A stretch of DNA of 64,000 nt, taken from positions 137,344-201,343 of the forward strand of contig JAEFAM010000001.1 in the NCBI GenBank assembly GCA_016287565.1, in the 5' to 3' direction. The stretch comes from Clostridia bacterium (GTDB taxonomy: Bacteria; Bacillota; Clostridia; UBA1212; UBA1255). Under the pieces are notes generated by a model. It saw only the letters and a list, made by a program, of their open reading frames with translations. It ran no database searches and was not told the DNA's origin. This document shows, in pieces, positions 1-13,900 of the stretch; the stretch's first letter is position 1; each line of letters begins with the position of its first letter. A program made the translations under genes and the position numbers.

Positions 1-10
1 ATACACCTAC

Positions 11-41
11 AAAAAAAGCAGCCAAAAAGGCTGCTTTTTTT
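11..41. terminator. Intrinsic terminator hairpin (GCAGCC-aaaaa-GGCTGC) flanked by an A-run and a T-run. It could act bidirectionally.
   Basis: Perfect 6-bp stem at 18-23/29-34 followed by TTTTTTT (35-41), preceded by AAAAAAA. Confidence 0.55.
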
Positions 42-127
42 GTGCCGCAAATCCACCAAAGCCATCAAGATTTGCGGCGCCCGTGGCGCGAATGAAACAA
101 GACCCGGCACCGCGGGCAAGGGGAGCT

Positions 128-175
128 TGTGGATTCGAACCTCGACCGGGTGCGAATAGTCCCTTAACATACCAA
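128..175 (+). repeat. Copy 1 of a conserved hairpin motif (GTGGATTYGAACC...GGGTG...GCGAAT...CCTTAAC). Its reverse complement carries a tRNA T-arm-like GGTTCGAATCC, but it does not fold as a tRNA.
   Basis: Close sequence similarity to 2461-2512. The ATTCG/CGAAT inverted repeat is visible. Attempted cloverleaf folding on both strands failed. Confidence 0.4.
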
Positions 176-192
176 AAGCGGGTGGCTATAAT
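164..192 (+). promoter_or_regulatory. Putative sigma-A promoter for CDS 219-677 (-35 TTAACA 164-169, 17-bp spacer, -10 TATAAT 187-192).
   Basis: Hexamers read directly from the sequence. Located about 27 nt upstream of the start codon. Confidence 0.45.
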
Positions 193-218
193 AATACACG
201 TGGTCAACGGGGAGGGAA

Positions 219-677
219 ATGATCGTGGAGCTCGGAAGGAAGATAGCGGACTTGAGAAACAACGTTAATATGTCTCAGCAGACGCTGGCCGAGCTTCTGT
301 TTGTTTCGCGAGACCTGGTCTCCAAGTGGGAGAACGGGAGCAGACGGCCGGATTATACGACGATCGAAAAGTTGGCGGCCATATTCCGGGTGAGCGCGGA
401 CGAAATTGTCAGCAAAAACGACGTGACTTTTAAAGAGCTTGCGGAATGCGTTGATGATGAAACTGAATTGACCGAAGAAGAACTTGCCGGACTGCTGAAT
501 GGATTTTTGGCGGGATTGACCGAAAAAGAAGCGGATATTTTCATGAAACGATATTATTTTTTGATGTCAGCCCCTGAGATCGCGTCGGAATACCGGCTCA
601 GGGATAATCACGTCCGCAGCATTCTGTCCAAGACCCGGAAGAAACTCAAACGATACGTCAGGGAGGCGCTGAACTGA
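219..677 (+). CDS. Small transcription factor: N-terminal XRE/Cro-type HTH fused to a sigma-70 region-4-like C-terminal domain.
   Basis: N-terminus MSQQTLAELLFVSRDLVSKWENGSRRP is the XRE HTH signature. C-terminus TEKEADIFMKRYYFLMSAPEIASEYRLRDNHVRSILSKTRKKLKRY is an ECF sigma region-4-like HTH. GGAGGG lies upstream. The stop overlaps the next start (TGAGATG). Confidence 0.8.
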   Translation: MIVELGRKIADLRNNVNMSQQTLAELLFVSRDLVSKWENGSRRPDYTTIEKLAAIFRVSADEIVSKNDVTFKELAECVDDETELTEEELAGLLNGFLAGLTEKEADIFMKRYYFLMSAPEIASEYRLRDNHVRSILSKTRKKLKRYVREALN

Positions 678-678
678 G

Positions 679-2352
679 ATGAACGGGGAAAAACTGTTTA
701 ATGCGATTACAAAAGTAAACAGTAAATTTATTGACCGCGCCGCTTCAGCCGGAGAAAACGGCATCAATACCGAAACGAAAAGCAGTGCATCCCGCAGTTG
801 GGGCAGCGGCAGGTTCAGGATGCGGCCGGCGTTGGCCGTGGAGGCATTAATCATTTTTATCGCCGTGATCGCGACGATTGTCGCCTTTGTCGCTAAAAAA
901 CAGCGTGGCGAGAGGGTCAATACGCAGCCGACAGATGGAGACGTCACGACGCTCGCCGCGGAAACCACGCCTACCCCCGCGCCGCCGGCCGTCGATCTGG
1001 TCAACGTCAGCCAGCTGATCGGAGACGACCAGCTGGGCAGGGGACTGCTATGGGGCTCAAGAGATAAACACCTGGCTGAGCTGTATGAAGCGTTGTTTGC
1101 CGCCGGCGAGGCGGGCAACACTGGGCCGCTTTATTACGGGTATCCCGTCCTGGATTACAGCCTGCTGGAAAGGATCACCTTTAACGAGGATTACGGATAC
1201 GACGTGAGCAATTTCTTTGAAGAGAAAACGCCGCGGGAAATCGAAGGGCTCGCAAGGGTCTATGTTTGTAAATATCACGGAGAGTTCGATATGATACTTG
1301 CCGGCGGATCGATCTATTATACGCTTGACCGGGCGGAACTAAAGGTCGGTTCGGCAGTACCGTTTGATTACGATAATAACGGCGTCAACGATATCCTGCT
1401 CATGTTTGGTCAGAGGCCATCGCCTTTTTCCGATTTCATAGAGAACGATCCGGATGCGCTTTACTGGAGAGGTTATTACGTACTGGATATGGCCAGGGGT
1501 GAACTGGTGGAGATCTGCTCTGTTACCGCGCCACTCGAACTGCCTTATATACTCAACAGCGGCGGAAAATGCTATATTTATCTGGATTCCAGCCAGATGG
1601 GCGGCGAAGTGAAGTTTGAGGGCGAGCGCTTTACTATCGGCGGAACAGAACCGGAGATATTCGTGAAAGCGATGTATGAAACGCGGCCTGAGCAATTGCC
1701 TTCGGATAAAATTACGGTAAACGCCACGCCCGCGCCCACTGCGGTGCCGCCGACGGAGAAACCGTATGAGGAGTTGCCGACGATGCCTCCGACGGAAGCA
1801 CCGACCGGCCCTACGCCCATCCCGTGGGATGATCCGAACAGCGTTCAGGGGATTGCCGACCACAATTTCTTTATCGAGGTCTGTCAAGAGGGCAGAAATA
1901 TTTCAGGACCGGATTTCAAAGAAGAGTTTTATTATTTTGACGGCAATGAAATGAAAACTTTCAAGTGGTCGCTCGATGCTCAAATCGAAGAAACAATGAT
2001 GCAGATCACTAGAGATATTAAAGAAAAACGTGAATTTTACGCGTATATCAGCGCGGGAAAAGATTTTTCGGTGGCCCACGTGACTGGCGGCGAGATAATT
2101 TCCGTAGATGTTTACGCGGTCAATAACGCGGAAAACTGGGAGCAACTTACGTTCGACCGGGTGGCGACCGGGCTCAGCGAGTCCGAGTTTATGGAGTATG
2201 CCGCGTCGTCAATGCCTTTCCGTCAGGGTTCAAACGGTGAGCTGCTGCCGTGCTTTGCTGTTTTCCACACTGGCATAAACGGTCAATTTATCTCCGCTGC
2301 CGGTGAGTACGAGCGCGTGATCAAGAGCAGTTTAGTAACTTTCGTGCCGTGA
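679..2352 (+). CDS. Membrane-anchored protein (single TM near residue 60, large extracytoplasmic domain with Pro/Thr-rich linkers). Translationally coupled to the regulator. Anti-sigma/sensor-like partner.
   Basis: TM segment ALAVEALIIFIAVIATIVAFVA. PT-rich linkers (TTPTPAPPA, TPAPTAVPPTEKP...PTEAPTGPTP). Start overlaps the upstream stop. Confidence 0.7.
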   Translation: MNGEKLFNAITKVNSKFIDRAASAGENGINTETKSSASRSWGSGRFRMRPALAVEALIIFIAVIATIVAFVAKKQRGERVNTQPTDGDVTTLAAETTPTPAPPAVDLVNVSQLIGDDQLGRGLLWGSRDKHLAELYEALFAAGEAGNTGPLYYGYPVLDYSLLERITFNEDYGYDVSNFFEEKTPREIEGLARVYVCKYHGEFDMILAGGSIYYTLDRAELKVGSAVPFDYDNNGVNDILLMFGQRPSPFSDFIENDPDALYWRGYYVLDMARGELVEICSVTAPLELPYILNSGGKCYIYLDSSQMGGEVKFEGERFTIGGTEPEIFVKAMYETRPEQLPSDKITVNATPAPTAVPPTEKPYEELPTMPPTEAPTGPTPIPWDDPNSVQGIADHNFFIEVCQEGRNISGPDFKEEFYYFDGNEMKTFKWSLDAQIEETMMQITRDIKEKREFYAYISAGKDFSVAHVTGGEIISVDVYAVNNAENWEQLTFDRVATGLSESEFMEYAASSMPFRQGSNGELLPCFAVFHTGINGQFISAAGEYERVIKSSLVTFVP

Positions 2353-2392
2353 GCCTTTTTGTGCGTTGCGGAATGCCTCGAAGAATGATATA

Positions 2393-2447
2393 AAACAGGG
2401 GACTGTTCAGCTGCCTGAAAACAGGTTTTTGAACAGCCCCTTTTTTG
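2393..2447 (+). terminator. Strong intrinsic terminator after the 679-2352 CDS.
   Basis: GGGGACTGTTCAG ... TTGAACAGCCCC stem of about 12 bp with one bulge, followed by TTTTTT. Confidence 0.7.
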
Positions 2448-2460
2448 CGTATAACGCGAA

Positions 2461-2512
2461 GTGGATTTGAACCGGGTGTTAGCGAATCCACAATCTCCCA
2501 TCCTTAACTTAT
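2461..2512 (+). repeat. Copy 2 of the hairpin motif (GTGGATTTGAACCGGGTGTTAGCGAATCCAC...CCTTAAC).
   Basis: Perfect 7-bp stem GTGGATT/AATCCAC. Shares GTGGATTYGAACC, GGGTG, GCGAAT and CCTTAAC with copy 1. Confidence 0.4.
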
Positions 2513-2570
2513 ATCTTTTGCAACAAGCCCAAACAAAAAACTCTACCCGCTCCCGTTTCGCGAAAACCGG

Positions 2571-2599
2571 TTGACTTGCCGCGATCGTCCGTATATAAT
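2571..2599 (+). promoter_or_regulatory. Putative sigma-A promoter for the NPCBM/GH36-like operon (-35 TTGACT, 17 bp, -10 TATAAT).
   Basis: Near-consensus hexamers at 2571-2576 and 2594-2599, about 55 nt upstream of the RBS GGAGG. Confidence 0.55.
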
Positions 2600-2654
2600 G
2601 CAAATGTTATCGGTAACATTTTCAAAACCCAAACAAAAGCGGAGGATCGTGACT

Positions 2655-4415
2655 ATGAAAAAGGGACACACGTCGACTCTCGTATCGACTCTCGTATTGG
2701 CGCTGACACTTGCTTTAACGCTTTTATTCAGCCTGTTGCCCGGCACGGCAGTAAATGCCGCGGAGGAGCAGAACGCCGAGCTGTTTCTGAGCGATCTGAC
2801 TCCGGTCAGCACCGCGCCGGTGGGAAAAGTTGACCCCAATACCGGGGCGCCGGTGGCAGGCTACACCGCGGATTCCGTCATCAACCGCTTTAACGGTTCA
2901 GGCAACACGCTTGTCCTCAACGGCCGGACGTACGAAAAAGGCATAGGCCTCGTTCCGTACGGAGACGATACGAGCGGGCAGGCAGGTTATATAAACGCAG
3001 AAGCCGTTTTCGACATCTCAGGTTACAGCAGCACGTATGACGTGTTTCTGGCAACGGTAGGAAGGCGCGACTGGCCGGAAGATCCGGGACCATACGTGTA
3101 CAGCATGGTCTGCCGGATATACGTCGACAACGTTCTCGCCGCGGAAAGTCCTTCACTCAATTTCGGAGAAGTGTACGAGGCGAAAGTCAGCATCAAGGGC
3201 GCCAAAGAGTTAAAACTGGTCACCACCTGCGGTACGGATACGTACCATTACGACTGTTCGGTATGGGGCAACGCACGGCTGGCCGCCGATAAATCATTCG
3301 CCCCGTCTTCCATAGAATTCACTTCGTTCCCGGCAAAGTCGATCTATGCCGTGGGCGAAGCGCTGAATATGAGCGGAGGCTCGATCACCGTAAAATATTC
3401 CGACGGCAGCACCGCGCAATTGCCTATGTTAGATACCATGTTGACCGGCTACGATCCGCAAACCACAGGCAAACAGCAGCTTGCGATCTCATATTTAGGC
3501 CATCAGGAAGAGTGGATCGTCACGGTGGCAGATCTGGTGTATCTGAGCGATATTGCCCCTAAATCCCTGAATATTCTGGAAAACGAAGTAGATACTTTCG
3601 GCGTCGATACGACCTCGAAGGGCAGCCCGATAATCATAAACGAGATCGATTACAAAAAAGGGTTCGGCGTGCATCCCTTTGAAGACGCTTCCGCGGAGAT
3701 AGAATATGACATCAGCGCGTACAGCGGCGAATACAATATCTTTTACGCGGTGGCGGGCAAGGATAAAACTACCGGCGAGCCCGGTTCCTTCGTGAAAGTG
3801 TACGTTTACGTTGACGGCGTCCAGGCGGCAGAATCGGACTATCTGACGTACGGCGACGAGTTCGTTATTGCCATAGATATTTCCGGCGGGTCAACGCTTC
3901 TGATTGAAGTTTCGCCGACGGAAGACGGCTATCACTGGGACAGCACCTGCTTCGGCGACGCCATGCTGCTAAAGTCGGCAATAGAGAAAAAGGAACTGGA
4001 ACTGCCGGAAAAACTGGAATATGAGAAAGGAAAACTGCTCAACCTCTCCGGCGGGGCGATCGTTTATCATTACGACAACGGTATCGTTTCCCGCGTTCCG
4101 CTGACGGACGAAATGGTGAAGGGATTTGACAAAGATACTGCCGGTACTCAGACGCTCACGGTGGAATACGGCGGCGAAACGGTTTCTTTCGAAGTGACCG
4201 TAAAAGAACCGGAGCCCGATCCCACCGCGCCGCCCACCGCCGAACCGAAAAAGACGGCAGATCCGTCCGAAGCCGGCAATACAGACGCGCCGGACCGCAG
4301 GACCGGCGGCAAAAACAGCTGGATCGCGCCTGTTATTATTGCAGCCGCCGCCATATGTGTTATAATTATTGCCGTCACAGTGATACTGAAAAAGAGCCGC
4401 AAACAGGGGAAATAA
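2655..4415 (+). CDS. Secreted, C-terminally membrane-anchored carbohydrate-binding surface protein with two NPCBM-like domains and Ig-like domains.
   Basis: Signal peptide MKKGHTSTLVSTLVLALTLALTLLFSLLPGTAVNA. Duplicated KGIGLVPYGDD.../KGFGVHPFED... modules typical of NPCBM. C-terminal hydrophobic anchor IAPVIIAAAAICVIIIAVTVILKKSRK. Strong RBS GGAGGA. Confidence 0.8.
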   Translation: MKKGHTSTLVSTLVLALTLALTLLFSLLPGTAVNAAEEQNAELFLSDLTPVSTAPVGKVDPNTGAPVAGYTADSVINRFNGSGNTLVLNGRTYEKGIGLVPYGDDTSGQAGYINAEAVFDISGYSSTYDVFLATVGRRDWPEDPGPYVYSMVCRIYVDNVLAAESPSLNFGEVYEAKVSIKGAKELKLVTTCGTDTYHYDCSVWGNARLAADKSFAPSSIEFTSFPAKSIYAVGEALNMSGGSITVKYSDGSTAQLPMLDTMLTGYDPQTTGKQQLAISYLGHQEEWIVTVADLVYLSDIAPKSLNILENEVDTFGVDTTSKGSPIIINEIDYKKGFGVHPFEDASAEIEYDISAYSGEYNIFYAVAGKDKTTGEPGSFVKVYVYVDGVQAAESDYLTYGDEFVIAIDISGGSTLLIEVSPTEDGYHWDSTCFGDAMLLKSAIEKKELELPEKLEYEKGKLLNLSGGAIVYHYDNGIVSRVPLTDEMVKGFDKDTAGTQTLTVEYGGETVSFEVTVKEPEPDPTAPPTAEPKKTADPSEAGNTDAPDRRTGGKNSWIAPVIIAAAAICVIIIAVTVILKKSRKQGK

Positions 4416-4417
4416 AA

Positions 4418-6541
4418 ATGGACAGATACAGATCAAAAAGGAGGATCATTTCTGTTATGCTGACGTCAACGCTAATTGCCGGCGCATTCGGCTGCGCCGA
4501 TTCGGGGAAAAGCGGGTCGAACGGTTATAAACCGTATTCCTATCAGTATTCGGACGTTTCCGCCGGACTGAATCCGTCGCAGGAAAAGAAAGAAGCGGTC
4601 GTCAACGAATATGAAGGCTTTCTCCGGGATCTTTCTGCGTTGCCGGTCTCTTTCTCCTTCGAAGGAAAAGAATACAAAGGCTTTAACGACAGTTTTAAAG
4701 AGATCGGCCGCGAGACCAGGGACGAAGGAGAGAAGATCGCCACCGATATCGTCCTCAAAAAAGGAGCGCTGGAGGTCAGGATAGATATGGCGGTCTATCC
4801 GAACTATTGCGCGTATGAATGGACGGTTTATTTTACAAATACAGGCAGCGACCGGATCGGTCCCCTTGAGGGAGTCAATTCTGCGGATATATCCTTCGGC
4901 GGAAAGGATCCGTATATTTTTGCCAACGCAGGCGATTATCAGCTGGATCCCGTAACAAAAGCAGAATCGGTAAGATATAATCCATACACCGTTGACCTTG
5001 CCGAGCAGCCTGTATTCGAACAGATCCAGCCTACGGGCCGTTCTTCCGAAGGCGGATTTCCGTATTATAACCTGCAGTACGGCGACGGCGGCGTGATCCT
5101 CGCGATCGGCTGGCCCGGTTCCTGGTTCTCGCGCTTCGATGCTTCTGCAGATGCCGTACGTTTTACCGCGGGACAGGCGCACCTGAACACGTATATCGAC
5201 CCGGGCGAAACGGTAAGGCTGCCGCTGATGGCGTTCGTGTATTACGAAGGCAGGGATATTGACGCGTCAATGAATCTCTGGAGGCACTGGTTTATCGACT
5301 GCAACATGCCGCGGATAAACGGTCAACTTATCAAGCCCATGACGTCCGCCACGTCCGCCACGTATATCAATCTGGCCAGGACTACGGAGAAGGAAGAGGT
5401 CAACGTCCTGAACAAGTACCTGAAAAACGATATTCCCCTCGATTCCTACTGGCTTGACGCCGGCTGGTACTTTAAAACGGGGACAGAGTCCGTTTCCGAA
5501 TGGCTCGAGACCGGCAACTGGAAAGTCGACATTGGCCGTTTCCCCACGGAATTCCAGGCTATTTCGGATATTACCGCGGCGCACGGCATGGACTTTATCG
5601 TGTGGTTCGAGCCGGAGCTGGTCCGGATAAGCAATTCCTGCCTTGACCCGGACGGAATGAAGCCCGAGTGGATCCTGGGCGAAGACGGCACCTGGCGTAT
5701 AGCGAATCTGGGCGAACCCGGGCTGGTAGACTGGGTGTTTGAAAGATTGTCCTCGATAATCGAAAAAGGCGGCGTGACCGTCTACCGTCAGGATTACGGC
5801 ACGGGAAATCCGCTGGGCAACTGGCTGGCGAACGACTCAGCGGATCGCGTCGGAATGACGGAAAACAAGTACGTTCAGGGCTATCTCGAACTTTGGGACA
5901 GGCTGCTTGAACGGTTTCCTAATATGTTTATCGACACCTGCGCTTCCGGCGGCGGGAGGCTCGATCTGGAAACGCTGAGGCGCTCAGTGCCCCTGCACAA
6001 AACCGACTACGATTACGGCGACGTCGACACCAAGCAGTCGATGCATCAGGCGCTTTTCCAGTGGATCCCGTATTTCGGCACGGTGACAACGATAGGACGG
6101 CTGGACTTTACGTCCTATTTCCTGCGGTCGAGCTACTGCTGCTTCCTGGCCGACGGCAACGACACCCGCTACAGCAAATTCGACTGGAGCGCACTGCGCC
6201 GGGCTTTCGATGAATTTCACAGCATAAAAGACTATTATTATTGCGATTATTATCCGCTTACCGAGTGGAATTACGGCCTTACCGAATGGCGTGGCTGGGA
6301 GTTTGTCGACCCCGGAACGCAGTCCGGCTTTATCCAGCTGTTCTGCCCGGAAAAATGCAAAACGCTTACGTACGTAGCGAAACTTTCGGGACTGAAGCCG
6401 GACGCCGTATATCTGTTGACCGACGCCGACGGAAACCTGACCTGCAGCAAGAGCGGCAGGGAACTGATGGAGAGCGGATTGACGGTATCGGTGCCCGAAA
6501 GCAGGACGTCGGTGTTTATAACGTTTAAAAAAGAAGGCTAA
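4418..6541 (+). CDS. Lipoprotein glycoside hydrolase, GH36-like (clan GH-D alpha-galactosidase/alpha-GalNAcase superfamily).
   Basis: Lipobox LIAGAFGC. YWLDAGWY, FIVWFEPE, YRQDYG (nucleophile-region-like) and CASGGGRLD (GH36 acid/base-region-like CSGGGGR) motifs. Separated from the upstream gene by 3 nt. Confidence 0.75.
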   Translation: MDRYRSKRRIISVMLTSTLIAGAFGCADSGKSGSNGYKPYSYQYSDVSAGLNPSQEKKEAVVNEYEGFLRDLSALPVSFSFEGKEYKGFNDSFKEIGRETRDEGEKIATDIVLKKGALEVRIDMAVYPNYCAYEWTVYFTNTGSDRIGPLEGVNSADISFGGKDPYIFANAGDYQLDPVTKAESVRYNPYTVDLAEQPVFEQIQPTGRSSEGGFPYYNLQYGDGGVILAIGWPGSWFSRFDASADAVRFTAGQAHLNTYIDPGETVRLPLMAFVYYEGRDIDASMNLWRHWFIDCNMPRINGQLIKPMTSATSATYINLARTTEKEEVNVLNKYLKNDIPLDSYWLDAGWYFKTGTESVSEWLETGNWKVDIGRFPTEFQAISDITAAHGMDFIVWFEPELVRISNSCLDPDGMKPEWILGEDGTWRIANLGEPGLVDWVFERLSSIIEKGGVTVYRQDYGTGNPLGNWLANDSADRVGMTENKYVQGYLELWDRLLERFPNMFIDTCASGGGRLDLETLRRSVPLHKTDYDYGDVDTKQSMHQALFQWIPYFGTVTTIGRLDFTSYFLRSSYCCFLADGNDTRYSKFDWSALRRAFDEFHSIKDYYYCDYYPLTEWNYGLTEWRGWEFVDPGTQSGFIQLFCPEKCKTLTYVAKLSGLKPDAVYLLTDADGNLTCSKSGRELMESGLTVSVPESRTSVFITFKKEG

Positions 6542-6587
6542 AGCGCGCCGAGAATTGACAATACCGGGGTTCTTTGATACTATTTTG

Positions 6588-6620
6588 CCGTTGCCGCCGA
6601 TGCAGACGGCAACGGTTTTT
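6588..6620 (+). terminator. Intrinsic terminator after the GH36-like gene.
   Basis: CCGTTGCCG...CGGCAACGG 9-bp stem followed by TTTTT. Confidence 0.65.
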
Positions 6621-6635
6621 GATGAGAGGAACAGC

Positions 6636-7721
6636 ATGAAAAGATCGACGATCTACGATATTGCCGAGAAGGCGGGCGTTTCGGTCACCACCGTAACACG
6701 CGCTTTTAAGAAGGACAGCAGTATTAAGCCGAAAACGAGAGAACGGATCCTTAAACTTGCGGAAGAGTTCAATTATACTCCGAGCATAAACGCCATCCGC
6801 CTCTCCAGGAAAGCGATCGTGATCGGCGCGATACTGGACACGTGCTCCGAAGAATTATATAAAGAATTAAAGAAGGGCCTGGAAGCTGCCCATAAAGAGC
6901 TGGCAGGGTTTAAGGTCGAACTGGAGATACGCAGCCTTCCGAAAGATATTGACGGTACGGATCTTTGCGAGAAATTTCTTGAAGAATTGCTCGATTCTGG
7001 AATACACGGACTTATATTGGCGCTTCAGGCATATTCGGAAAGTTTTATCCGGAAGCTCAACGACGCGGTAAACGAGGGGTTAAACCTGGTCCTGCTGATC
7101 AACGACTGCGACGTGATCCGCCAGTCGTTTCATATCCGTACGCAATCAATGCTTAGCGGGAGGGTCGCGGCCGAACTGCTCCGAAACAGTATCTCGGGCA
7201 ATGAAGTGGCAGTCTTCCTCGGCAACCGAAACGTTCCCGTTCACAAGGAGGCCATTGCGGGTTTTGAACAGGAAGCAAGAGCGTTAGGCCTCGTTGTCGC
7301 CGAAGTGTGCGATTTCAAAGAAAATCTGGAATTGTCCAGAAAGCAGGTCAAGGAAGTCGTCGGTAAACATCCCGGTCTCGGCGGCATATTCGTATCATCC
7401 GCCAATTCCGACGCCATTGTCGACGAGCTCGTGAAAAGCGGACTTGCGGGCGGCAGGATCAAGATCGTGACAACGGATCTGTATCCCCGGATAGCGGATC
7501 ATATCGAGAGCGGGGCAATATTGGCTACGATCTACAAAAACCCGTACCAGCAGGCCAAATCGTCTTTTGAATTGCTGTTCAAGCATATAAACGGTACGGC
7601 TGACGATCCGGATGACGTTTACGTCGTGCCTCAGGTCGTTATAAAGGGGAATCTGCCTGCTTATATGCGGGAGAGGGTTTCGCTTTTAGACGAATGCGGC
7701 GAACGCGGCGGAAATAATTGA
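6636..7721 (+). CDS. LacI-family transcriptional regulator.
   Basis: N-terminal MKRSTIYDIAEKAGVSVTTVTRAFK HTH_LacI signature followed by a periplasmic-binding-protein-like sugar-binding domain. The start was chosen downstream of the terminator. Confidence 0.85.
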   Translation: MKRSTIYDIAEKAGVSVTTVTRAFKKDSSIKPKTRERILKLAEEFNYTPSINAIRLSRKAIVIGAILDTCSEELYKELKKGLEAAHKELAGFKVELEIRSLPKDIDGTDLCEKFLEELLDSGIHGLILALQAYSESFIRKLNDAVNEGLNLVLLINDCDVIRQSFHIRTQSMLSGRVAAELLRNSISGNEVAVFLGNRNVPVHKEAIAGFEQEARALGLVVAEVCDFKENLELSRKQVKEVVGKHPGLGGIFVSSANSDAIVDELVKSGLAGGRIKIVTTDLYPRIADHIESGAILATIYKNPYQQAKSSFELLFKHINGTADDPDDVYVVPQVVIKGNLPAYMRERVSLLDECGERGGNN

Positions 7722-7825
7722 TTTGCGGAGCTGTTTTGATCGCAGGAGTTCGATTTTTGTCGTTCGGTTGACGATCTGAGATAGTAGATCAACCGGTCTT
7801 TTACCTGCCGTCCGCGTCATTTTTC

Positions 7826-7854
7826 TTGATTATACCTCGTAAATTTGGTACGAT
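7826..7854 (+). promoter_or_regulatory. Possible promoter of the giant surface-protein gene (-35 TTGATT, 17 bp, extended -10 TGgTACGAT).
   Basis: Hexamers read from the sequence. The -10 is a weak match. Confidence 0.3.
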
Positions 7855-7874
7855 ATCAATGGTGTATTGTGCCG

Positions 7875-7896
7875 TTGATCGATCCATATCGATCAA
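7875..7896. promoter_or_regulatory. Perfect palindrome TTGATCGAT-ccat-ATCGATCAA (9-bp arms) between the putative promoter and the giant gene. Candidate operator.
   Basis: Perfect inverted repeat read directly, about 50 bp upstream of ATG 7945 and immediately downstream of the LacI-family gene. Confidence 0.4.
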
Positions 7897-7944
7897 GACT
7901 ATTTTTGCTGCGGCGATGATTATTTAATAAAGAGGTAGAATATC

Positions 7945-10900
7945 ATGGGCAGGAAACTCATTTCGTTCATTCTTGCATTACTGATATGCGTGAATATAAT
8001 GCCGGCGGGAGTCAACGCAGGTGACGGAGACGCACCCGGCGCGGGTACAGGAAATGTCCCAGATACAGGCACCTCGGGCGCAGGCAACACTTCCGTGATT
8101 AAAAACGGAGGCGAAGATATTTCAGTTGGCGACGCAAAGGCCGGAAGCTACGTCATACATTTTTACCCGCTGGGCGAGGGCGCTGCCGACTATTACGACA
8201 TGGTTGCCACGGTGTGGGACGCGGACGGCAACTCGATCGGCAGGTTCCCGATGGGCGCTTACGGTCTTGATTTGTGGGAGCCCAAGAAGGTCGACGCGTT
8301 TTTTGACGTTGACCCCGCGACGATAAAGATCAAGTGTATGTATAAGCCGGAAGGCGCGGAGACGTACGAGGAGATCACGTTCGAGCATGATTTTGAGGAG
8401 TTCTGCTACGACAGGATCGCGAGCGGCGAACTTCACGTTGTCCAGAACGAAACGGTGGATTTCTGCAAATATACGATTGAGTGCGTCAAACACGACGACG
8501 GGACACTGCCTGGAGTTTTATACGTTGACGCGGACGGTAATCCCCACTACCAGCCGAAATGCTACGGCTTGTCCAACCACGGGTTCACGAACATTCTGAC
8601 CGACTCCAACGAGGAATACGAAAACGACGGCTGGTACAGCCTGCGCGCGGACTACACCGGCGAGAACGGGTACAACGTTCCGATTTACGTAAACGGCGAC
8701 GTAAATCTCGTTCTGTGCGATGGTTCGGCCCTTGAGTCGAGTACGTTCATGCTGATGGATGGTTCGTCGCTCACGATCTGGCAGCAGAGAGAGGGCACGG
8801 GCAAGCTCACGATCGTCGGAGAAAAGGTAACCGGCATCGGGACGTCGAACCAGTACTATCCGGGGATCCAGGTTGAGACCGGCTCGAGCCTGACCATCAA
8901 CGGCGGTATTATCGACGTGACCGGACAGGATTACTGTGCGGGCATCGGAGGCAGATATGAGCATGGAAGCGGAGCCATTACGATCAACGCGGGAACGGTC
9001 ACCGTGAAAGGCGGCACGACTCACAACTCGACCAGCTGGACAGGCGGAGCTGCGATAGGCGGAGGCGGCCATGGCTCAAACGGCCCGATCGTTATTAACG
9101 GCGGAACGGTTACCGCGAAACCGGGTGCCCTGAGCTACGGCGCCGCTATAGGCAGCGGAGATGAAGCGGACGGCGGTCCGATCACCATCAACGGGGGAAC
9201 TGTAATAACGGATGCGACCATTGGCGCAGGTTCTCACAGCAAAAGCGGAGCAGTTACGATCAACGGCGGAACGGTGGAGGTTGACTCAAAAAGCATCGGC
9301 ATCGGCGGTTCCACGAACGGGCCGATAACCATCACGGGCGGAACAGTCAGAGTATATACAACGTATGTACGCACCGCTATAGGAGCGTCGGGTAGCCAGG
9401 AGGATCCGATCATCATCAGCGGCGGAACGGTCATTGCGAAATGCTCCTCGTCAGCCGGGGAATACTCGGGACAGGCGGCGGCGATCGGCGGCGGCGGCGG
9501 GGGCCACGCCGGCAGCGCGGGCGTTATCATAATCAGCGGAAAAGATACCAACGTTATCGCGATTTCCGAGGACGGCGCAGGTATCGGCAGCGGAGGCGTG
9601 GGACGCGACATGAACGGACAGCTCATGGGGGATCCTGCAGAATCTGCGGGGGACATAACAATTGAAGACGGATTCGTTTTCGCGATGTCCACAAAATCCG
9701 GCGCGGGTATCGGCGGCGGCAACGGCTGCAACGGCGGAAAGGTCACTATAAACGGCGGGTACGTTATCGCTTACGGCGGTTCGTCAGCCTACAACTGGTA
9801 CACGGACGGCGCCCAGGACACTGCGGGAAGCGGAACGCCCGGAGCGAGCGACGACCCGATTAACGCGTACATGGAGTCGTTTCTTTACGATCTGATCGCG
9901 GACGCGATCCTCGATCTCATTTTCTCGAATACGTACAGCGCGGCGGGAATCGGCGGCGGCAGCGGCGGAACGGGCGGAACCGTTAACGTAAACGGCGGTA
10001 TCGTCGTGGCGAGAGGCGGCACGAACGAGTGCAGCGCCATCGGCTGGGGCAAAGACGCTTCGACCGTTGCGCTGAGCATCTATAACGGCGCCAAGGTGAC
10101 CTACGGCCACTGGAACGACGGCAACGACAATATCAATATTGACGGCTGGACCACCGGCAACGACAAGGCGCAGAAGGCGCGCGACAACGCTTACGCGAAG
10201 ATCGAGCCCGGCCCGCTTACGGTTAGATTCGACGTGGGCGCACACGGCACGCCGCCGGAGACCCAGGTCGTCACAATGGGCCAGACGGCAACGAGACCCG
10301 ATGATCCTTCGGAGGAAGGGTTCATTTTCGGCGACTGGTACAAGACCAACGCGTTTGACGAGCTTTTCGATTTTGAAGAGCCGATCATGACGAACACGGT
10401 GGTCTACGGCAGATGGCTGACCGCTTTTGATCTAACAGTTAAAAAGATATGGCCTGAGGGTGCGGAGCAGGAGCTTCCCGCTTCGGTTACGGTTAATTAC
10501 ACGAATAAAATCTCGGAGGAGAAGACCGAGACAGGCGCTCTTACGCTGACGGCTGAAAACGGCTGGACGGCGAATATAACGCTCTCGGAGATCAGTATTC
10601 TGACGCTTACAGAGGAGCACGCGGAGGGTTTCGTGGCGGACGGGTGGACGCTCACGTGCGGTTTGGAGTCGCGCGACGTCACGGGTCCGGAAGGCGCTCA
10701 AGGCGGCGGAAAGGGAACGGCGGTGCTCAACCTTCGCGACGCTTCGGCGCTGAATCTTTCCGCGGAGACGCTTGCCGCCCTCAGAAACGGCGGCGGCACG
10801 GTCGCATTAAACAATAAAAAGGCGCGCATATATTCCGCAGAAAAGCGGTGGGATATTCCCCAGAACAACTATAAGCCGGCAACGGTCTCAGTTGTGCTGC

Positions 10901-13900
10901 AGCACAAGAACGGCGGTACCTGGGAGACGGTCGAGACCGTCATACTGAGCGAAGAAAAAGGCTGGAAAGCAGACTTTTCGCCGCTCCCCGAAACCGCGGG
11001 AATGGACGCGGACTACCGCGTTCGCGAGCTTGACCAGGATGGCAACCCCGTTCTTGACGCGGCGGACGAAGGCGGGGCGCAGCAACCTACCGTCACTTTC
11101 GGCATTGAGCCCTGGACAGACACTCATATGGATATGAGCTACAAGGTGTCGTACACTGACGGCGTCAGCGGGAAGACCATTATCAAAAACACCGCGGGTG
11201 AGTACTATTACGTAAAAATAATCTGGCAGAGCAATGACGGCGTCATAGACATGCCGGAGACTGTTACGGTGAACCTTTTCAAGACCGGTTCGTTCGTTGA
11301 CTACCTGACGCTGTCCGCCGCAAACAACTGGGAAGGCGTTTTTCAAGGACAGATGGACAGCGCGGATTACAGGGCACGCGAGGAAGATTGCGACGATAAG
11401 ACGGTGTTTGTTTCCGACCTCGACTCTGAGGCGTTCCCGGGCAGCGATTACGACAAGGCGGTTTATATAGTTGAAAAGGACGGAGCGCAGCGGATCTACG
11501 AATTCGACGTTACCGTGGAGGTTTCCGACAGAGGCCGCACCACCGTTATCACCAACACGAAATCGGGTGTCGTGTTCACGGCAAAGAAGGTCTGGAACAC
11601 GCCGGACGACAGCCTGTGGCCTCAGAGGATCTACAGAGTTTCTGCGGTGCTTCAGAAGCGCGTTACGCCGGAAGGCGAAGACGCGGAGCCGATGTGGCAG
11701 GACGTGGAAAGGATCGACCTCGGCGCGGACATCAGGTGGGAAGGCAGATTCCCCTCCGTGCGGATCGGTCAGGATTTTGACGAAGACAACTACCGGGTGC
11801 GCGAATTCATCAAAAACGTCGCTTACGGGTACTCGAACATTAAAATAGACGCGGGCACGGATGATCCGGAAGCAGAAGGAAGGCTGATGCTTTTGCCCGG
11901 CGACAGCGACAACACAGACCGCAAGCCGGCTCATTTCAGCTGCGAATACAGATATATCAACGGCAGTATGAGCGACTACGAGTACTCCTCGGCGGGGTTC
12001 ACGGTGTCGTACGAACGCGACGAAGACGGCACCTTTGTGATTAAGAACACTCAGGACGGTATCGTTACTGTCGAAAAGAAGTGGACAGACAGCGACGGAA
12101 AAGAGATAAAGGACGGAATTCCTGAAAGCGTTAAAGTCGTTCTTCAAAAGAAAGATAACGGCGAGTGGACGACCGTCGGAGAGGCCTCGGTCCTCAATAA
12201 AGAAAACAGCTGGAGGAAGTCCTTTGACCTGACCGGCGAGCTTGATCTGAACGACATTTCGGCGGACCTTGCAAACTACCGCGTGCGCGAACTTGACGAA
12301 GAGGGAAATATCGTTTATGACGCGGACGACTCCGACAAGCCGGAGGACGCAAAAGGGAAGATCTCGTTTAAGGTGAAGACCGGCAAAGACGACGAGACGG
12401 CGGACGTTTATTTCGCAGCGTCCTACAAGACCGGGAGCGCCGGCGGCAGCTACACCGTCACCAACAAGCTCCTGGGCGGCCGCTTCGTTATCGAGAAGGA
12501 ATGGGACGTCGACCTCGAGAAGACCGACTGCCCCGACAGCGTTGAAGCCGTGATCCAGGCGAAGAACGGCGACGAATGGGAGACGGTCAAACTGATCGAA
12601 CTGAAGGGGAAGGAAGAGGAGTCCGGGAATAATTCCGGGGACAGCTCAGGCAACAACTCCGGAGACGGGAACAACTCCGGAGGCAACTCTGAAAGCGACT
12701 CTGAAAACGAAGAATGGAAGACAGTCGTCTACCTCCCGCTCACCAAAAAAACCGACGACGGCAAGACCGTCAAGATCGAGTACCGCGTAAGAGAACTTCG
12801 CGAAGAGACAGCTCTGGACGAGCTTATGGGCCGTCTGAAGGATTTCATCAAGCAGGGCAAGGATAAGTACGATGAGTGGATCGAAACGCTCAAGACCGAC
12901 GGTTCGAAATATTACAACATGCTTCCCGACGCGATCAAAGAGGCGGCGAATCAGGGTTACGAGCAGCTTCTCGACAAGCTGAACGCCACGCCGAACGACC
13001 TTTACGACAAGCTGATGGAAAAGCTTGATGAGGTCACTTCCGGGAACCGCATCGTTTACGATAAGGACGACCCGGAGGTCAAGAAGGAGGACGGTAAAGG
13101 CGGAGACGACGATGACGGCGACGAAGACGAGAAGCCCGAGACGAACGCGGTCAGATTCCACGTCAAAGAGAAGAATTCGGTCGTTTCCGGCGGCTCTGTT
13201 GATGCGCACGTGACCAAATACAGCGTTGAATACAAGGAAGAGGACGGCACGTTCACGATCACGAACAAGGCGATCCTGGATATCGATCTGATCAAGCGCT
13301 GGCTGGCAATTGGCGTGGAGGAAGAGGATATGCCGGAATCCGCGTGGGTGGTGCTGCTTTTCAAGCCTAAAGAGGGCGCCGTTGACAAAGCGGGCGGCAT
13401 TGCATCGTCGGCAGGCGTTGACATCAGCGGTGTGCTCGACTTTGAGTTCCCGGTCATCAATCCGGAGGACGGCGGCAGGGACCCGGTGAGCATCATCAGC
13501 GAGCTGGTGACAGGCATTGACATTAATATTTTCAGCAGCCTCGAGATCGTTCCGAAGCTGGCGATCGACAAGGTCGACGAGGATTCGAACTGGACGAAAA
13601 CGTACACCGTCAGCAAGTACTACTGCGGAATTCCGATGGAATACAAGGGGGCCGAACTCTCGAGCGAGATCATAAGGCAGATCGTGAAGTACCTTACGGA
13701 CGGTGCCATCGACTCGCCGGTGTCCTACAACCCGTTCGATAACTATTTCAGCATTCCCACTCCTGCGATCCGGACGCTGGCGGGCATTACTGACCCGGGC
13801 ACTTTTCTCGACTTCTCGGCGCTCACGGGCAAATTCCTCGAAAAGGCCAAGTCGTTGACAATGGACGACATTAGAAACTTCGGGCCCGAGACGCTTCTCG

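What the first reader, a model, noticed from the sequence alone, without database searches (positions are those of the whole stretch)
128..2512. Two copies of a conserved hairpin motif with a tRNA T-arm-like core bracket the regulator pair and sit just upstream of two promoters
The segments 128-175 and 2461-2512 share GTGGATTYGAACC, GGGTG, GCGAAT and CCTTAAC. Copy 2 forms a perfect 7-bp stem, GTGGATT/AATCCAC. On the minus strand both read ...GGTTCRAATCC..., the canonical tRNA T-loop, yet neither folds into a tRNA. Copy 1 overlaps the -35 of the regulator's promoter. Copy 2 lies about 60 nt upstream of the -35 of the NPCBM operon promoter. Two readings are possible: a shared cis-regulatory site, for example for the XRE-sigma4 protein, or degenerate tRNA-3'-end-derived att-like direct repeats flanking a 2.3-kb inserted cassette.
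Basis: partly seen in the sequence, partly recalled or inferred. Interest (0 to 1): 0.6.

Follow-up and report, generated by a model that had tools for sequence, protein, structure and literature searches.

The report
Junction repeats flanking a mobile regulator cassette
The two "copies" are not one shared control site: the first contains the real, family-wide promoter element of a two-gene regulator/sensor cassette, and the part the two copies share is a short tRNA-end-like repeat that marks the joints of a rearrangement-prone cassette locus in an uncultured rumen Clostridia bacterium.

Summary
GTGGATTYGAACC occurs exactly only at 129 and 2461 in 64 kb, but this pair alone is not beyond chance (p about 0.05-0.09).

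A sister contig, L160, is 96% identical to the window and extends 5 kb upstream. It shows the repeat is real. It holds a third copy before a second, divergent cassette, a 34-nt block shared by two junctions, and a 19-nt inverted copy that creates copy 2's stem.

The other "shared" blocks are not homologous. In copy 1, GGGTG...CCTTAAC lies inside a 22-bp element, GGGTGCGTTTTGTCCCTTTACA-N16/17-TATAAT. That element precedes nearly every XRE-sigma4 regulator plus membrane-partner cassette in rumen Clostridia. The 13-mer is absent from those other promoters.

Cassette B (149-2395) occurs at 93-95% identity in two other genomic contexts, so it moves. Its homology ends inside the repeats, not at them.

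The repeat reads like a tRNA 3' end, but no tRNA gene or recombinase gene is nearby. The NPCBM operon has its own conserved LacI-type operator.

Best reading: copy 1 is a junction repeat plus an autoregulatory promoter, and copy 2 is a non-regulatory recombination scar. The att-like reading is partly supported. The shared-operator reading is not.

The parts
11..41 (.). Bidirectional terminator module 'T1' (A-run, hairpin, T-run). In the sister contig it ends the neighbouring cassette A.
   Evidence: The same module recurs at L160 3539-3597, L164 2494-2539 and L165 18-65.
48..56 (-). Truncated inverted copy of the repeat core (CAAATCCAC = reverse complement of GTGGATTTG), directly after T1.
   Evidence: The fuller form GGAGATCGTGGATTTGCGGCAC occurs beside T1 in L164 and L165.
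119..147 (-). tRNA-3'-end-like fragment. The minus strand reads GGTCGAGGTTCGAATCCACAAGCTCCCCT.
   Evidence: It resembles the variable loop plus T arm of tRNA-Arg(TCT) of related MAGs. It is an inverted repeat with 2483-2501. It is not conserved in other family promoters.
148..169 (+). Family-wide 22-bp promoter-proximal element (GGGTGCGAATAGTCCCTTAACA; consensus GGGTGCGTTTTGTCCCTTTACA). Its last six bases are the -35. Proposed operator of the XRE-sigma4 regulator.
   Evidence: Mean match to the consensus is 19.6 of 22 over 26 cassettes, at 1.37 bit per position against 0.11 in the flank. PWM hits in 324 kb fall upstream of regulator genes and of one lipoprotein gene.
187..192 (+). The -10 box TATAAT, 17 nt after the -35.
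   Evidence: The box is conserved with a 16-17 nt spacer in all 26 cassettes.
219..677 (+). Regulator of 152 aa: an XRE-type HTH (HTH_3) fused to an ECF-type sigma-70 region 4. It has no sigma region 2.
   Evidence: Pfam and NCBIfam TIGR02937 positions 90-164. There are 128 homologues. The AlphaFold model has pLDDT 92. No full-length PDB analogue was found.
679..2352 (+). Co-transcribed 557-aa single-pass membrane partner with no known domain. Its start is 1 nt after the regulator's stop.
   Evidence: A partner of about 330-560 aa follows the regulator wherever its downstream gene was read. Partners A and B share only about 25 N-terminal residues.
149..2395 (+). Cassette B homology unit, meaning the stretch found at 93-95% nucleotide identity in other genomic contexts.
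   Evidence: L033 at 93.1%, L164 at 95.1%, and L165-L167 at 93-95%. The flanks are unrelated on both sides.
2398..2446 (+). Terminator after cassette B (GGGGACTGTTCA...TGAACAGCCCC followed by T6).
   Evidence: Its T-run is part of the 34-nt block shared with the junction before cassette A.
2450..2473 (-).
   Evidence: The 34-nt block matches L160 3591-3624 at 29/34, reached by 0 of 3000 shuffles (D3/D4).
2483..2501 (+). Inverted 'G-type' repeat copy (CGAATCCACAATCTCCCAT). It supplies the right arm of the 7-bp stem and the 'GCGAAT' block of copy 2.
   Evidence: It is 18/19 complementary to L160 5463-5481, and its inner 17 nt (2483-2499) match window 121-137 at 16/17 (I3, 79). It is identical to L165 1-19, where a terminator follows 2 nt later.
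2571..2599 (+). Sigma-A-type promoter of the NPCBM-GH36-LacI operon (TTGACT, 17 nt, TATAAT).
2603..2620 (.). LacI-type operator palindrome AATGTTA-TCGG-TAACATT over the predicted transcription start. It is the operon's own control site.
   Evidence: The same palindrome sits at the same place in the 50%-diverged operons L161-L163, which have no cassette and no 13-mer. A LacI gene is in the operon.

Best explanation
The two copies are composites that share only a short structural repeat.

**Copy 1** is a joint between two things.
- Positions 119-147 are a tRNA-3'-end-like repeat fragment.
- Positions 148-169 are the family-wide 22-bp element, which with TATAAT at 187-192 forms the promoter of the XRE-sigma4 regulator / membrane-partner operon.
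- I infer that the regulator binds this asymmetric element next to and over the -35 and so controls its own operon. I also infer that the membrane partner holds the regulator through its conserved N-terminal peptide.

**Copy 2** is two head-to-head copies of the same repeat, at 2450-2473 and 2483-2501, just after the cassette's terminator.
- I read it as a scar of the recombination events that assembled this two-cassette array.
- It has no role in the NPCBM operon, which has its own LacI operator.

**Shown**
- The repeat structure.
- The family element and its fixed geometry relative to the -10.
- Cassette relocation between genomic contexts.
- The LacI operator.

**Inferred**
- Who binds the 22-bp element.
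- That the repeats arose by recombination at the 9-13-nt core.
- That the repeats have no present function.
For: **The family element**
- It is present before 26 cassettes, at 1.37 against 0.11 bit per position, followed by a 16-17 nt spacer and TATAAT.
- PWM hits in 324 kb occur only at regulator promoters and one lipoprotein promoter. Copy 2 scores below 12 of 38.6.
- The regulator's two HTH regions are near-invariant across 42 homologues.

**The repeat**
- There are three direct copies plus one 19-nt inverted copy in L160 and the window. X-Z share 29 of 34 nt (0 of 3000 shuffles). X-Y share 13 of 13 nt (3 of 3000).
- The flanked regulators are only 39% identical, so the repeats are younger than the cassettes.
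- The core carries two kinds of left flank and three kinds of right flank, and copy 1 is a hybrid of them.
- Every core copy found lies within about 2 kb of a family cassette. None is in the other 61 kb of the window.

**Cassette mobility**
- Cassette B is found in three genomic contexts.

**The NPCBM operon**
- Its operator is conserved in L161-L163, which lack both repeat and cassette.
Against: - No recombinase or transposase was found among 34 large ORFs of the window or in L160.
- The moved unit, 149-2395, does not end at the repeats.
- The 13-mer is 13/13 and 12/13 conserved. Copy 2 has no substitution between the window and L160, while the next 37 nt have five. That could mean selection, although P(0) is only about 0.1.
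- Only two genomes carry this exact context.
- Binding of the regulator to the 22-bp element is untested. Near-identity of the element across paralogues would imply cross-talk, or a different common factor.
Confidence: 0.55

Rival explanations
1. The repeats are live recombination sites. On this reading, a recombinase encoded elsewhere in the genome integrates, excises or inverts the cassettes at the tRNA-3'-like core. This would resemble tandem accretion of integrase-less cis-mobilizable elements, or an invertible segment bounded by the 19-nt inverted repeat at 119-137 / 2483-2501.
For: - The core reads as a T loop plus T stem plus acceptor. In L165 it is followed after 2 nt by a terminator, as a tRNA 3' end would be.
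- A common core with hybrid flanks is what site-specific exchange produces.
- Two successive integrations at the core reproduce the order X-cassette A-Y-cassette B-Z.
- A 19-nt inverted repeat brackets cassette B (I3).
- A family cassette sits in the opposite orientation in the same neighbourhood in L018.
- Two independent cassettes lie 80-125 nt after tRNA genes.
Against: - There is no integrase in 64 kb and no intact tRNA.
- Cassette B's homology with L164 and L165 stops inside the repeats.
- tRNA-adjacent cassettes have no tRNA-end copy on their far side.
- Only one orientation is seen, in two genomes.
- There is no target-site duplication.
Confidence: 0.2
2. The core belongs to a lineage-specific family of short intergenic repeats, associated with terminators and resembling REP or MITE elements. 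On this reading its copies happen to cluster here, with no special link to the cassettes.
For: The T1 terminator with its attached core copy recurs at three loci behind unrelated upstream sequences (after cassette A, after a GH95 gene, and after a tRNA-end-like fragment). The extended unit GATGGGAGATTGTGGATTC is identical in L165 and at window 2484-2502.
Against: - There are no copies in the remaining 61 kb of the window.
- Every copy seen is near a family cassette.
- There is no target-site duplication and no consistent element ends.
Confidence: 0.13
3. The 13-mer is a shared operator through which the XRE-sigma4 protein, or the LacI or AraC regulator encoded nearby, co-regulates the regulator operon and the NPCBM operon.
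For: - The 13-mer lies upstream of three promoters and is highly conserved.
- It shows no substitutions between the window and L160.
Against: - It is absent from all other family promoters.
- Its distance to the -35 is 22, about 43 and 97 nt.
- It is absent from the orthologous NPCBM operons, which keep a LacI palindrome instead.
- It is not a palindrome or a direct repeat of the kind such regulators bind.
- A much better conserved candidate site for the regulator lies next to it.
Confidence: 0.07
4. The resemblance is chance, between two A+T-poor intergenic stretches that each happen to contain a T-loop-like word.
For: The window pair alone is not significant. A scan of metagenomes finds the pattern widely in unrelated tRNA genes and in coding sequence.
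Against: The third copy, the 34-nt block and the 19-nt inverted block are each far beyond shuffles.
Confidence: 0.04

Closest known systems
attL/attR repeats of elements integrated at tRNA 3' ends, and tandem accretion of integrase-less cis-mobilizable elements (CIMEs) (Guedon et al. 2017, PMC5704250)
   Same: A short tRNA-3'-end-like core is repeated at each joint of two tandem, unrelated insertions. The flanks around the core are hybrids. The cargo is found in different genomic contexts in close relatives.
   Different: - There is no intact target tRNA and no integrase.
- Core copies lie in both orientations.
- The relocated unit does not end at the core.
- The units are only 1.7-2.4 kb and each carries a single regulator operon.
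ECF sigma / anti-sigma pairs with an autoregulated promoter (established knowledge of the family; NCBIfam TIGR02937)
   Same: The regulator has an ECF-type region 4. It is translationally coupled to a single-pass membrane partner. A conserved element precedes its own operon. There are many paralogues per genome.
   Different: - Region 2 is replaced by an XRE HTH, so the protein cannot act as a sigma factor by itself.
- The promoter has housekeeping-type -35 and -10 boxes plus 16 extra conserved bases, not the ECF GGAAC/CGTC type.
XRE-family controller and repressor proteins that bind beside the -35 of their own promoter, such as C.AhdI, C.BclI and ImmR (best fold and sequence matches; their mode of action is from my own knowledge)
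   Same: The N-terminal domain has the same fold. The proposed site abuts or overlaps the -35 of the regulator's own gene.
   Different: Those proteins bind palindromic operators as dimers. Here the element is asymmetric and the protein carries a second, sigma-type HTH.
Invertible DNA segments bounded by short inverted repeats (my own knowledge)
   Same: A 19-nt inverted repeat, 17-18 of 19 matching, brackets a 2.3-kb promoter-bearing segment.
   Different: No recombinase gene is adjacent, and no second orientation has been observed.

Membership tests
tRNA gene | Cloverleaf detectable by a tRNA finder or covariance model | tested here: not met
   ARAGORN finds none in the window, L160, L164 or L165. 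Rfam gives no tRNA hit at E<=10 or E<=5.
att repeats of a tRNA-targeting integrative element | The repeat equals the 3' end of an adjacent intact tRNA gene | tested here: not met
   The sequence is tRNA-3'-like, but there is no intact tRNA beside any copy.
att repeats of a tRNA-targeting integrative element | Direct repeats delimit the unit that is present or absent in relatives | tested here: not met
   The shared unit is 149-2395, while the repeats lie at 129-141 and 2461-2473.
att repeats of a tRNA-targeting integrative element | An integrase or recombinase gene inside or next to the element | tested here: not met
   Pfam scans of 34 large ORFs of the window, and the precomputed Pfam families of the genes called in L160, show none.
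Transcription-factor operator shared by a regulon | The site is conserved upstream of orthologous or paralogous targets at a fixed distance from the promoter | tested here: not met
   This holds for the 13-mer, which is absent in 25 other cassettes and in the orthologous NPCBM operons and sits at variable distance. The neighbouring 22-bp element does meet this feature.
Transcription-factor operator shared by a regulon | The protein binds the site | not testable with these tools
   This needs EMSA or footprinting.
MITE or IS-like element | Terminal inverted repeats plus a target-site duplication | tested here: not met
   A 19-nt inverted repeat is present (I3), but the outer flanks...GGGCA and CCTTAAC..., show no duplication. 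No transposase is present.
Integron gene cassette / attC | A promoterless cassette ending in an attC with RYYYAAC...GTTRRRY cores, near an intI gene | tested here: not met
   The cassette starts with its own promoter. There is no intI. CCTTAAC and GTTAGCG fit the core consensus only in part.
Invertible segment | Both orientations are present in populations, and a recombinase is adjacent | tested here: inconclusive
   The inverted repeats are present. Only one orientation is seen, in the window and L160. No recombinase is present. Read-level data are not available.
ECF sigma factor | Sigma region 2 and region 4 are both present | tested here: not met
   Only region 4 is present (Pfam; TIGR02937 positions 90-164). 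The N-terminal domain is HTH_3.
Intrinsic terminator (for the copy 2 hairpin) | A G+C-rich stem followed by a T-run | tested here: not met
   The stem is A+T-rich and is followed by AATCTCCC. Folding energy is -6.4 kcal/mol with z = -1.2.

The most novel reading that the evidence does not exclude
The XRE-sigma4 plus sensor operons may be a new kind of small, promoter-first mobile regulatory cassette. On this reading they are shuffled between chromosomal sites, and stacked in tandem, by a recombinase encoded elsewhere in the genome that acts on a tRNA-3'-end-like core (GTGGATTYG). The three direct copies and one inverted copy seen here would then be its footprints.
Probability: 0.12. Interest if true: 0.7.

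Novelty: new variant of a known kind. Interest (0 to 1): 0.4.

Why it matters
- It separates a genuine, strongly conserved control element from a look-alike repeat. That prevents a false regulon call linking the regulator to the NPCBM glycan-utilisation operon.
- It brings into view an uncharacterised regulator family that is abundant in rumen Clostridia. The family has 128 homologues and several paralogues per genome. Each member fuses an XRE HTH to sigma region 4, has a membrane partner, and is preceded by an invariant 22-bp promoter element. I found no literature on it and no solved full-length analogue.
- If the regulator's sigma-4 domain reads the -35-overlapping element, or contacts RNA polymerase in place of the housekeeping sigma's region 4, that would be an unusual mode of activation. 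EMSA and in-vitro transcription could test this directly.
- The relocation of a 2.2-kb regulator cassette between three contexts at about 95% identity also shows fast turnover of sensory modules in gut anaerobes.

Tried and rejected
**Tried, without a useful result**
- A metagenome scan for GTGGATTYGAACC-N0-6-GGGTG gave 118 or more hits. They were tRNA antisense strands, dihydrouridine-synthase-like and GatB-like coding sequence, and miscellaneous matches.
- A scan of viral contigs for the putative tRNA end TTCGAATCCACAATCTCCC gave 0 hits.
- Rfam searches of both intergenic regions and of L160 found only sub-threshold terminator-like sRNA matches.
- Exact-protein look-ups of the window's sensor and NPCBM proteins found nothing on record.
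- A literature search for XRE-sigma4 fusions found nothing relevant.

**Considered and rejected**
- A conserved hairpin. Only copy 2 folds, and the energies are not unusual.
- The 9-mer AACATGAAG shared between the L164/L165 left joint and the joint before cassette A, and an AGCTTRTGG match to copy 1. Neither is significant in unconstrained tests, at 197 and 1075 of 3000 shuffles.
- Direct repeats of tRNA ends around the tRNA-adjacent cassettes L003, L022 and L024. None was found.
- A promoter in the TATAAC block. It has no -35.
- Tandem in-situ duplication of the cassettes. The regulators are only 39% identical, and the partners are unalignable beyond 25 residues.
- A 19-nt match between the cassette's 3' tail and the regulator gene (D7). 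It is of the same size as many chance matches in that list.
Full report
**1. Observation**

The sequences are at the stated coordinates.
- GTGGATTCGAACC is at 129-141 and GTGGATTTGAACC at 2461-2473.
- Both are followed by GGGTG, GCGAAT and CCTTAAC.
- GTGGATT (2461-2467) pairs perfectly with AATCCAC (2485-2491).
- The exact 13-mer pattern occurs nowhere else in 64 kb. With two mismatches allowed there are 6 matches against 3.5 expected.
- No tRNA is predicted, and no Rfam family, tRNA included, matches the region at E<=10.

Three parts of the observation do not hold.
- The pair by itself is not beyond chance. Its local alignment score is reached by 94 of 2000 shuffles and by 32 of 400 other window segments.
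- Only copy 2 has the stem, and neither copy folds unusually well (z = -1.5 and -1.2).
- The blocks after the 13-mer are spaced differently in the two copies.

**2. What copy 1 contains**

The gene at 219-677 encodes a 152-aa protein with an XRE-type HTH and an ECF-type sigma region 4. The gene at 679-2352 encodes a 557-aa single-pass membrane protein with no known domain.

The regulator has 128 homologues, all from uncultured rumen or gut Clostridia, often several per genome. Upstream of the homologues I looked at lies one strongly conserved element: GGGTGCGTTTTGTCCCTTTACA, then 16-17 nt, then TATAAT.
- Over 26 distinct cassettes the 22-mer matches its consensus at a mean of 19.6 of 22 positions.
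- It carries 1.37 bit per position. The 30 nt before it carry 0.11, and the spacer carries 0.20.
- The window's version is GGGTGCGAATAGTCCCTTAACA at 148-169.

The 13-mer lies in the unconserved flank, and no other family promoter has it.

A weight matrix of the element, scanned over 324 kb of loci plus the window, gave these results.
- It hits once before each cassette.
- It hits once before a lipoprotein gene (L010 708).
- It hits nowhere else above weak scores.
- Copy 2 scores below 12 of 38.6.

**3. The 13-mer is nevertheless a real repeat**

A metagenomic contig, L160, is 95.9% identical to window 1-12000 and extends 5.3 kb further upstream. It shows that the window begins just after a second cassette, A (regulator of 151 aa plus a 384-aa partner).

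Cassette A is an old paralogue of the window's cassette B. The regulators are 39% identical, and the partners align only over about 25 N-terminal residues.

A third GTGGATTCGAACC lies before cassette A. I name the three joints as follows.
- X is before cassette A.

The similarities between joints are these.

| Pair | Shared sequence | Identity | Shuffles reaching the score |
|---|---|---|---|
| X and Z | CTTTTTTG..TATAAC..GAAGTGGATTYGAACC (34 nt) | 29/34 | 0 of 3000 |
| X and Y | terminator module (59 nt) | about 80% | 0 of 3000 |
| X and Y | the 13-mer | 13/13 | 3 of 3000 |

In addition, window 2483-2501 (CGAATCCACAATCTCCCAT) is an inverted copy of the left flank plus the start of copy 1. It matches 18/19 in L160; in the window its inner 17 nt (2483-2499) match 121-137 at 16/17.

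The perfect stem is two head-to-head copies of the repeat. The GCGAAT of copy 2 belongs to the inverted copy, not to the family element.

The core GTGGATTYG therefore occurs at least four times in the first 2.5 kb of the window, including a truncated copy at 48-56. It has two kinds of left flank (TATAACnnGAA and GGGAGmTT) and three kinds of right flank. Copy 1 is a hybrid of these.

Further copies sit beside the same terminator module in the sister-lineage contigs L164 and L165. There are none in the remaining 61 kb of the window.

**4. tRNA likeness**

- The minus strand of 119-147 reads GGTCGAGGTTCGAATCCACAAGCTCCCCT. Its first 18 nt nearly equal the variable loop and T arm of tRNA-Arg(TCT) in related MAGs.
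- The other flank type reads ...CGAATCCACAATCTCCCA, which parses as T loop, T stem, acceptor and discriminator.
- At the start of L165, that sequence is followed two bases later by a terminator, as a real tRNA end would be.
- Two independent family cassettes lie 80-125 nt after tRNA genes.

So a tRNA-3'-end origin is plausible. But no copy belongs to an intact tRNA. A viral-contig scan for the putative end found nothing. The tRNA-adjacent cassettes have no second copy of the tRNA end on their far side.

**5. The cassette moves, but not at the repeats**

Window 149-2395 recurs in other settings.
- It recurs at 93-95% identity in L033/L164, after a GH95 gene, an SLFN_AlbA_2-domain gene and a gene fragment.
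- It recurs in L165-L167, after a small lipoprotein-like ORF.
- The flanks are unrelated on both sides.

Homology starts within one base of the first G of the family element and ends 43 nt after the partner's stop codon. Both 13-mers and the terminator at 2398-2446 lie outside it.

Other family members sit as self-contained two-gene units among varied housekeeping neighbours. In L018 a different family cassette lies, in the opposite orientation, next to the same neighbouring gene as in L160.

No recombinase, integrase or transposase domain was found among 34 large ORFs of the window, nor among the genes called in L160.

**6. The NPCBM operon has its own control**

A perfect palindrome, AATGTTA-TCGG-TAACATT, lies at 2603-2620 just after the -10. 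The operon encodes a LacI-family regulator.

The same palindrome sits at the same place in orthologous operons whose NPCBM protein is 50% identical. Those operons have neither cassette nor 13-mer upstream. Nothing links copy 2 to this promoter.

**7. Mechanism**

*Best supported (about 0.55).*
- Copy 1 is the joint of a tRNA-end-like repeat and the cassette's own promoter.
- The 22-bp asymmetric element is the likely binding site of the two-HTH regulator, giving autoregulation. Both HTH regions are near-invariant in 42 homologues. The AlphaFold model is confident, with pLDDT 92 and pTM 0.76. Binding itself is inferred.
- The partner's conserved N-terminal peptide probably tethers the regulator, by analogy with anti-sigma factors. 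This too is inferred.
- Copy 2 is a scar of the events that built the array.

*Rivals.*
- Live att or inversion sites served by a recombinase encoded elsewhere in the genome (0.2).
- A lineage-specific terminator-associated repeat family (0.13).
- A shared operator (0.07).
- Chance (0.04).

A model of two successive integrations at the core reproduces the X-A-Y-B-Z order neatly. It fails the boundary, tRNA and integrase tests.

**8. Comparison with known systems**

- The layout works like tandem accretion at a tRNA-derived att site (CIMEs; PMC5704250), but it fails that family's defining features.
- The regulator pair works like an ECF sigma / anti-sigma module. It lacks region 2, and its promoter has housekeeping-type boxes.
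- The N-terminal domain resembles controller or repressor proteins such as C.AhdI and ImmR.
- No solved structure matches the full two-domain protein at E<=0.001.
- A literature search found no description of such fusions.

**9. Verdict**

- The att-like reading is partly supported.
- The shared-operator reading is not supported.
- The repeat itself is of modest interest.
- The more valuable by-products are the family-wide promoter element and the evidence that these small sensory cassettes relocate.

Noticed in passing
window 2603-2620; L161 2765, L162 3262, L163 307: A LacI-type operator palindrome (AATGTTA-NCGN-TAACATT) lies just after the -10 of the NPCBM-GH36-LacI operon. It is conserved in 50%-diverged orthologous operons.
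   Followed up: partly
L010 708-729 and ORF 802-1293: The family 22-bp element with a proper -10 also precedes a 163-aa lipoprotein gene, 1.7 kb upstream of that locus's cassette. This gene is a candidate regulon member beyond the regulator's own operon.
   Followed up: partly
L160 3720-5316 (just upstream of window position 1): A second, divergent XRE-sigma4 plus partner cassette lies in tandem with the window's cassette. It has its own diverged family element, TGTTGCATATTGTCAAGTTACA-N17-TATAAT, at L160 3652.
   Followed up: yes
window 11-41; L160 3539-3597; L164 2494-2539; L165 18-65: One terminator module (A-run, hairpin, T-run, then GTGCCGCAAATCCAC) recurs behind different upstream sequences in closely related genomes (the genes in L160 and L164, a tRNA-end-like fragment in L165).
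   Followed up: partly
L165 1-50: The contig starts with GAATCCACAATCTCCCA, followed 2 nt later by a terminator. This looks like the 3' end of a tRNA gene whose body is off the contig.
   Followed up: no
L033 2486-2709 / L164 6677-6730: Downstream of the relocated cassette there are three hairpin units (TACCGCCTGG...CCAGGCGGTA), about 85 nt apart and 70-80% alike. Tandem Repeats Finder does not call an array.
   Followed up: partly
L018 5922-8100 versus L160 2-3501: A different family cassette lies convergent to the Cu_amine_oxidN1-domain gene, which in L160 precedes cassette A. It is the same neighbourhood with a different cassette in the opposite orientation.
   Followed up: partly
window 44-78: A 10-bp perfect stem (GCCGCAAATC / GATTTGCGGC) with a 15-nt loop lies in the 85-nt stretch between the terminator and copy 1. 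It includes the truncated inverted core copy. There is no Rfam match.
   Followed up: no
L164 4206-4387, L033 192-270: An N-terminal fragment of a glycosidase-like ORF (MTIENFRSKKWGVFCHFLYG...) ends at the cassette's left joint. L033 has a 98-nt deletion within it. This suggests gene truncation by cassette arrival.
   Followed up: no
window 679-760 and L160 4162-4240: The membrane partners of cassettes A and B share only a short N-terminal motif (LFNAITKVNSKFIDRA / LYDALSKIDDKYVENA) ahead of the transmembrane helix. It is a likely docking peptide for the regulator.
   Followed up: no
window 7945-14346: A very large 2133-aa ORF lies downstream of the LacI gene. In L160 its homologue carries Flg_new and faint Cna_B hits, so it is probably a cell-surface protein.
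   Followed up: no
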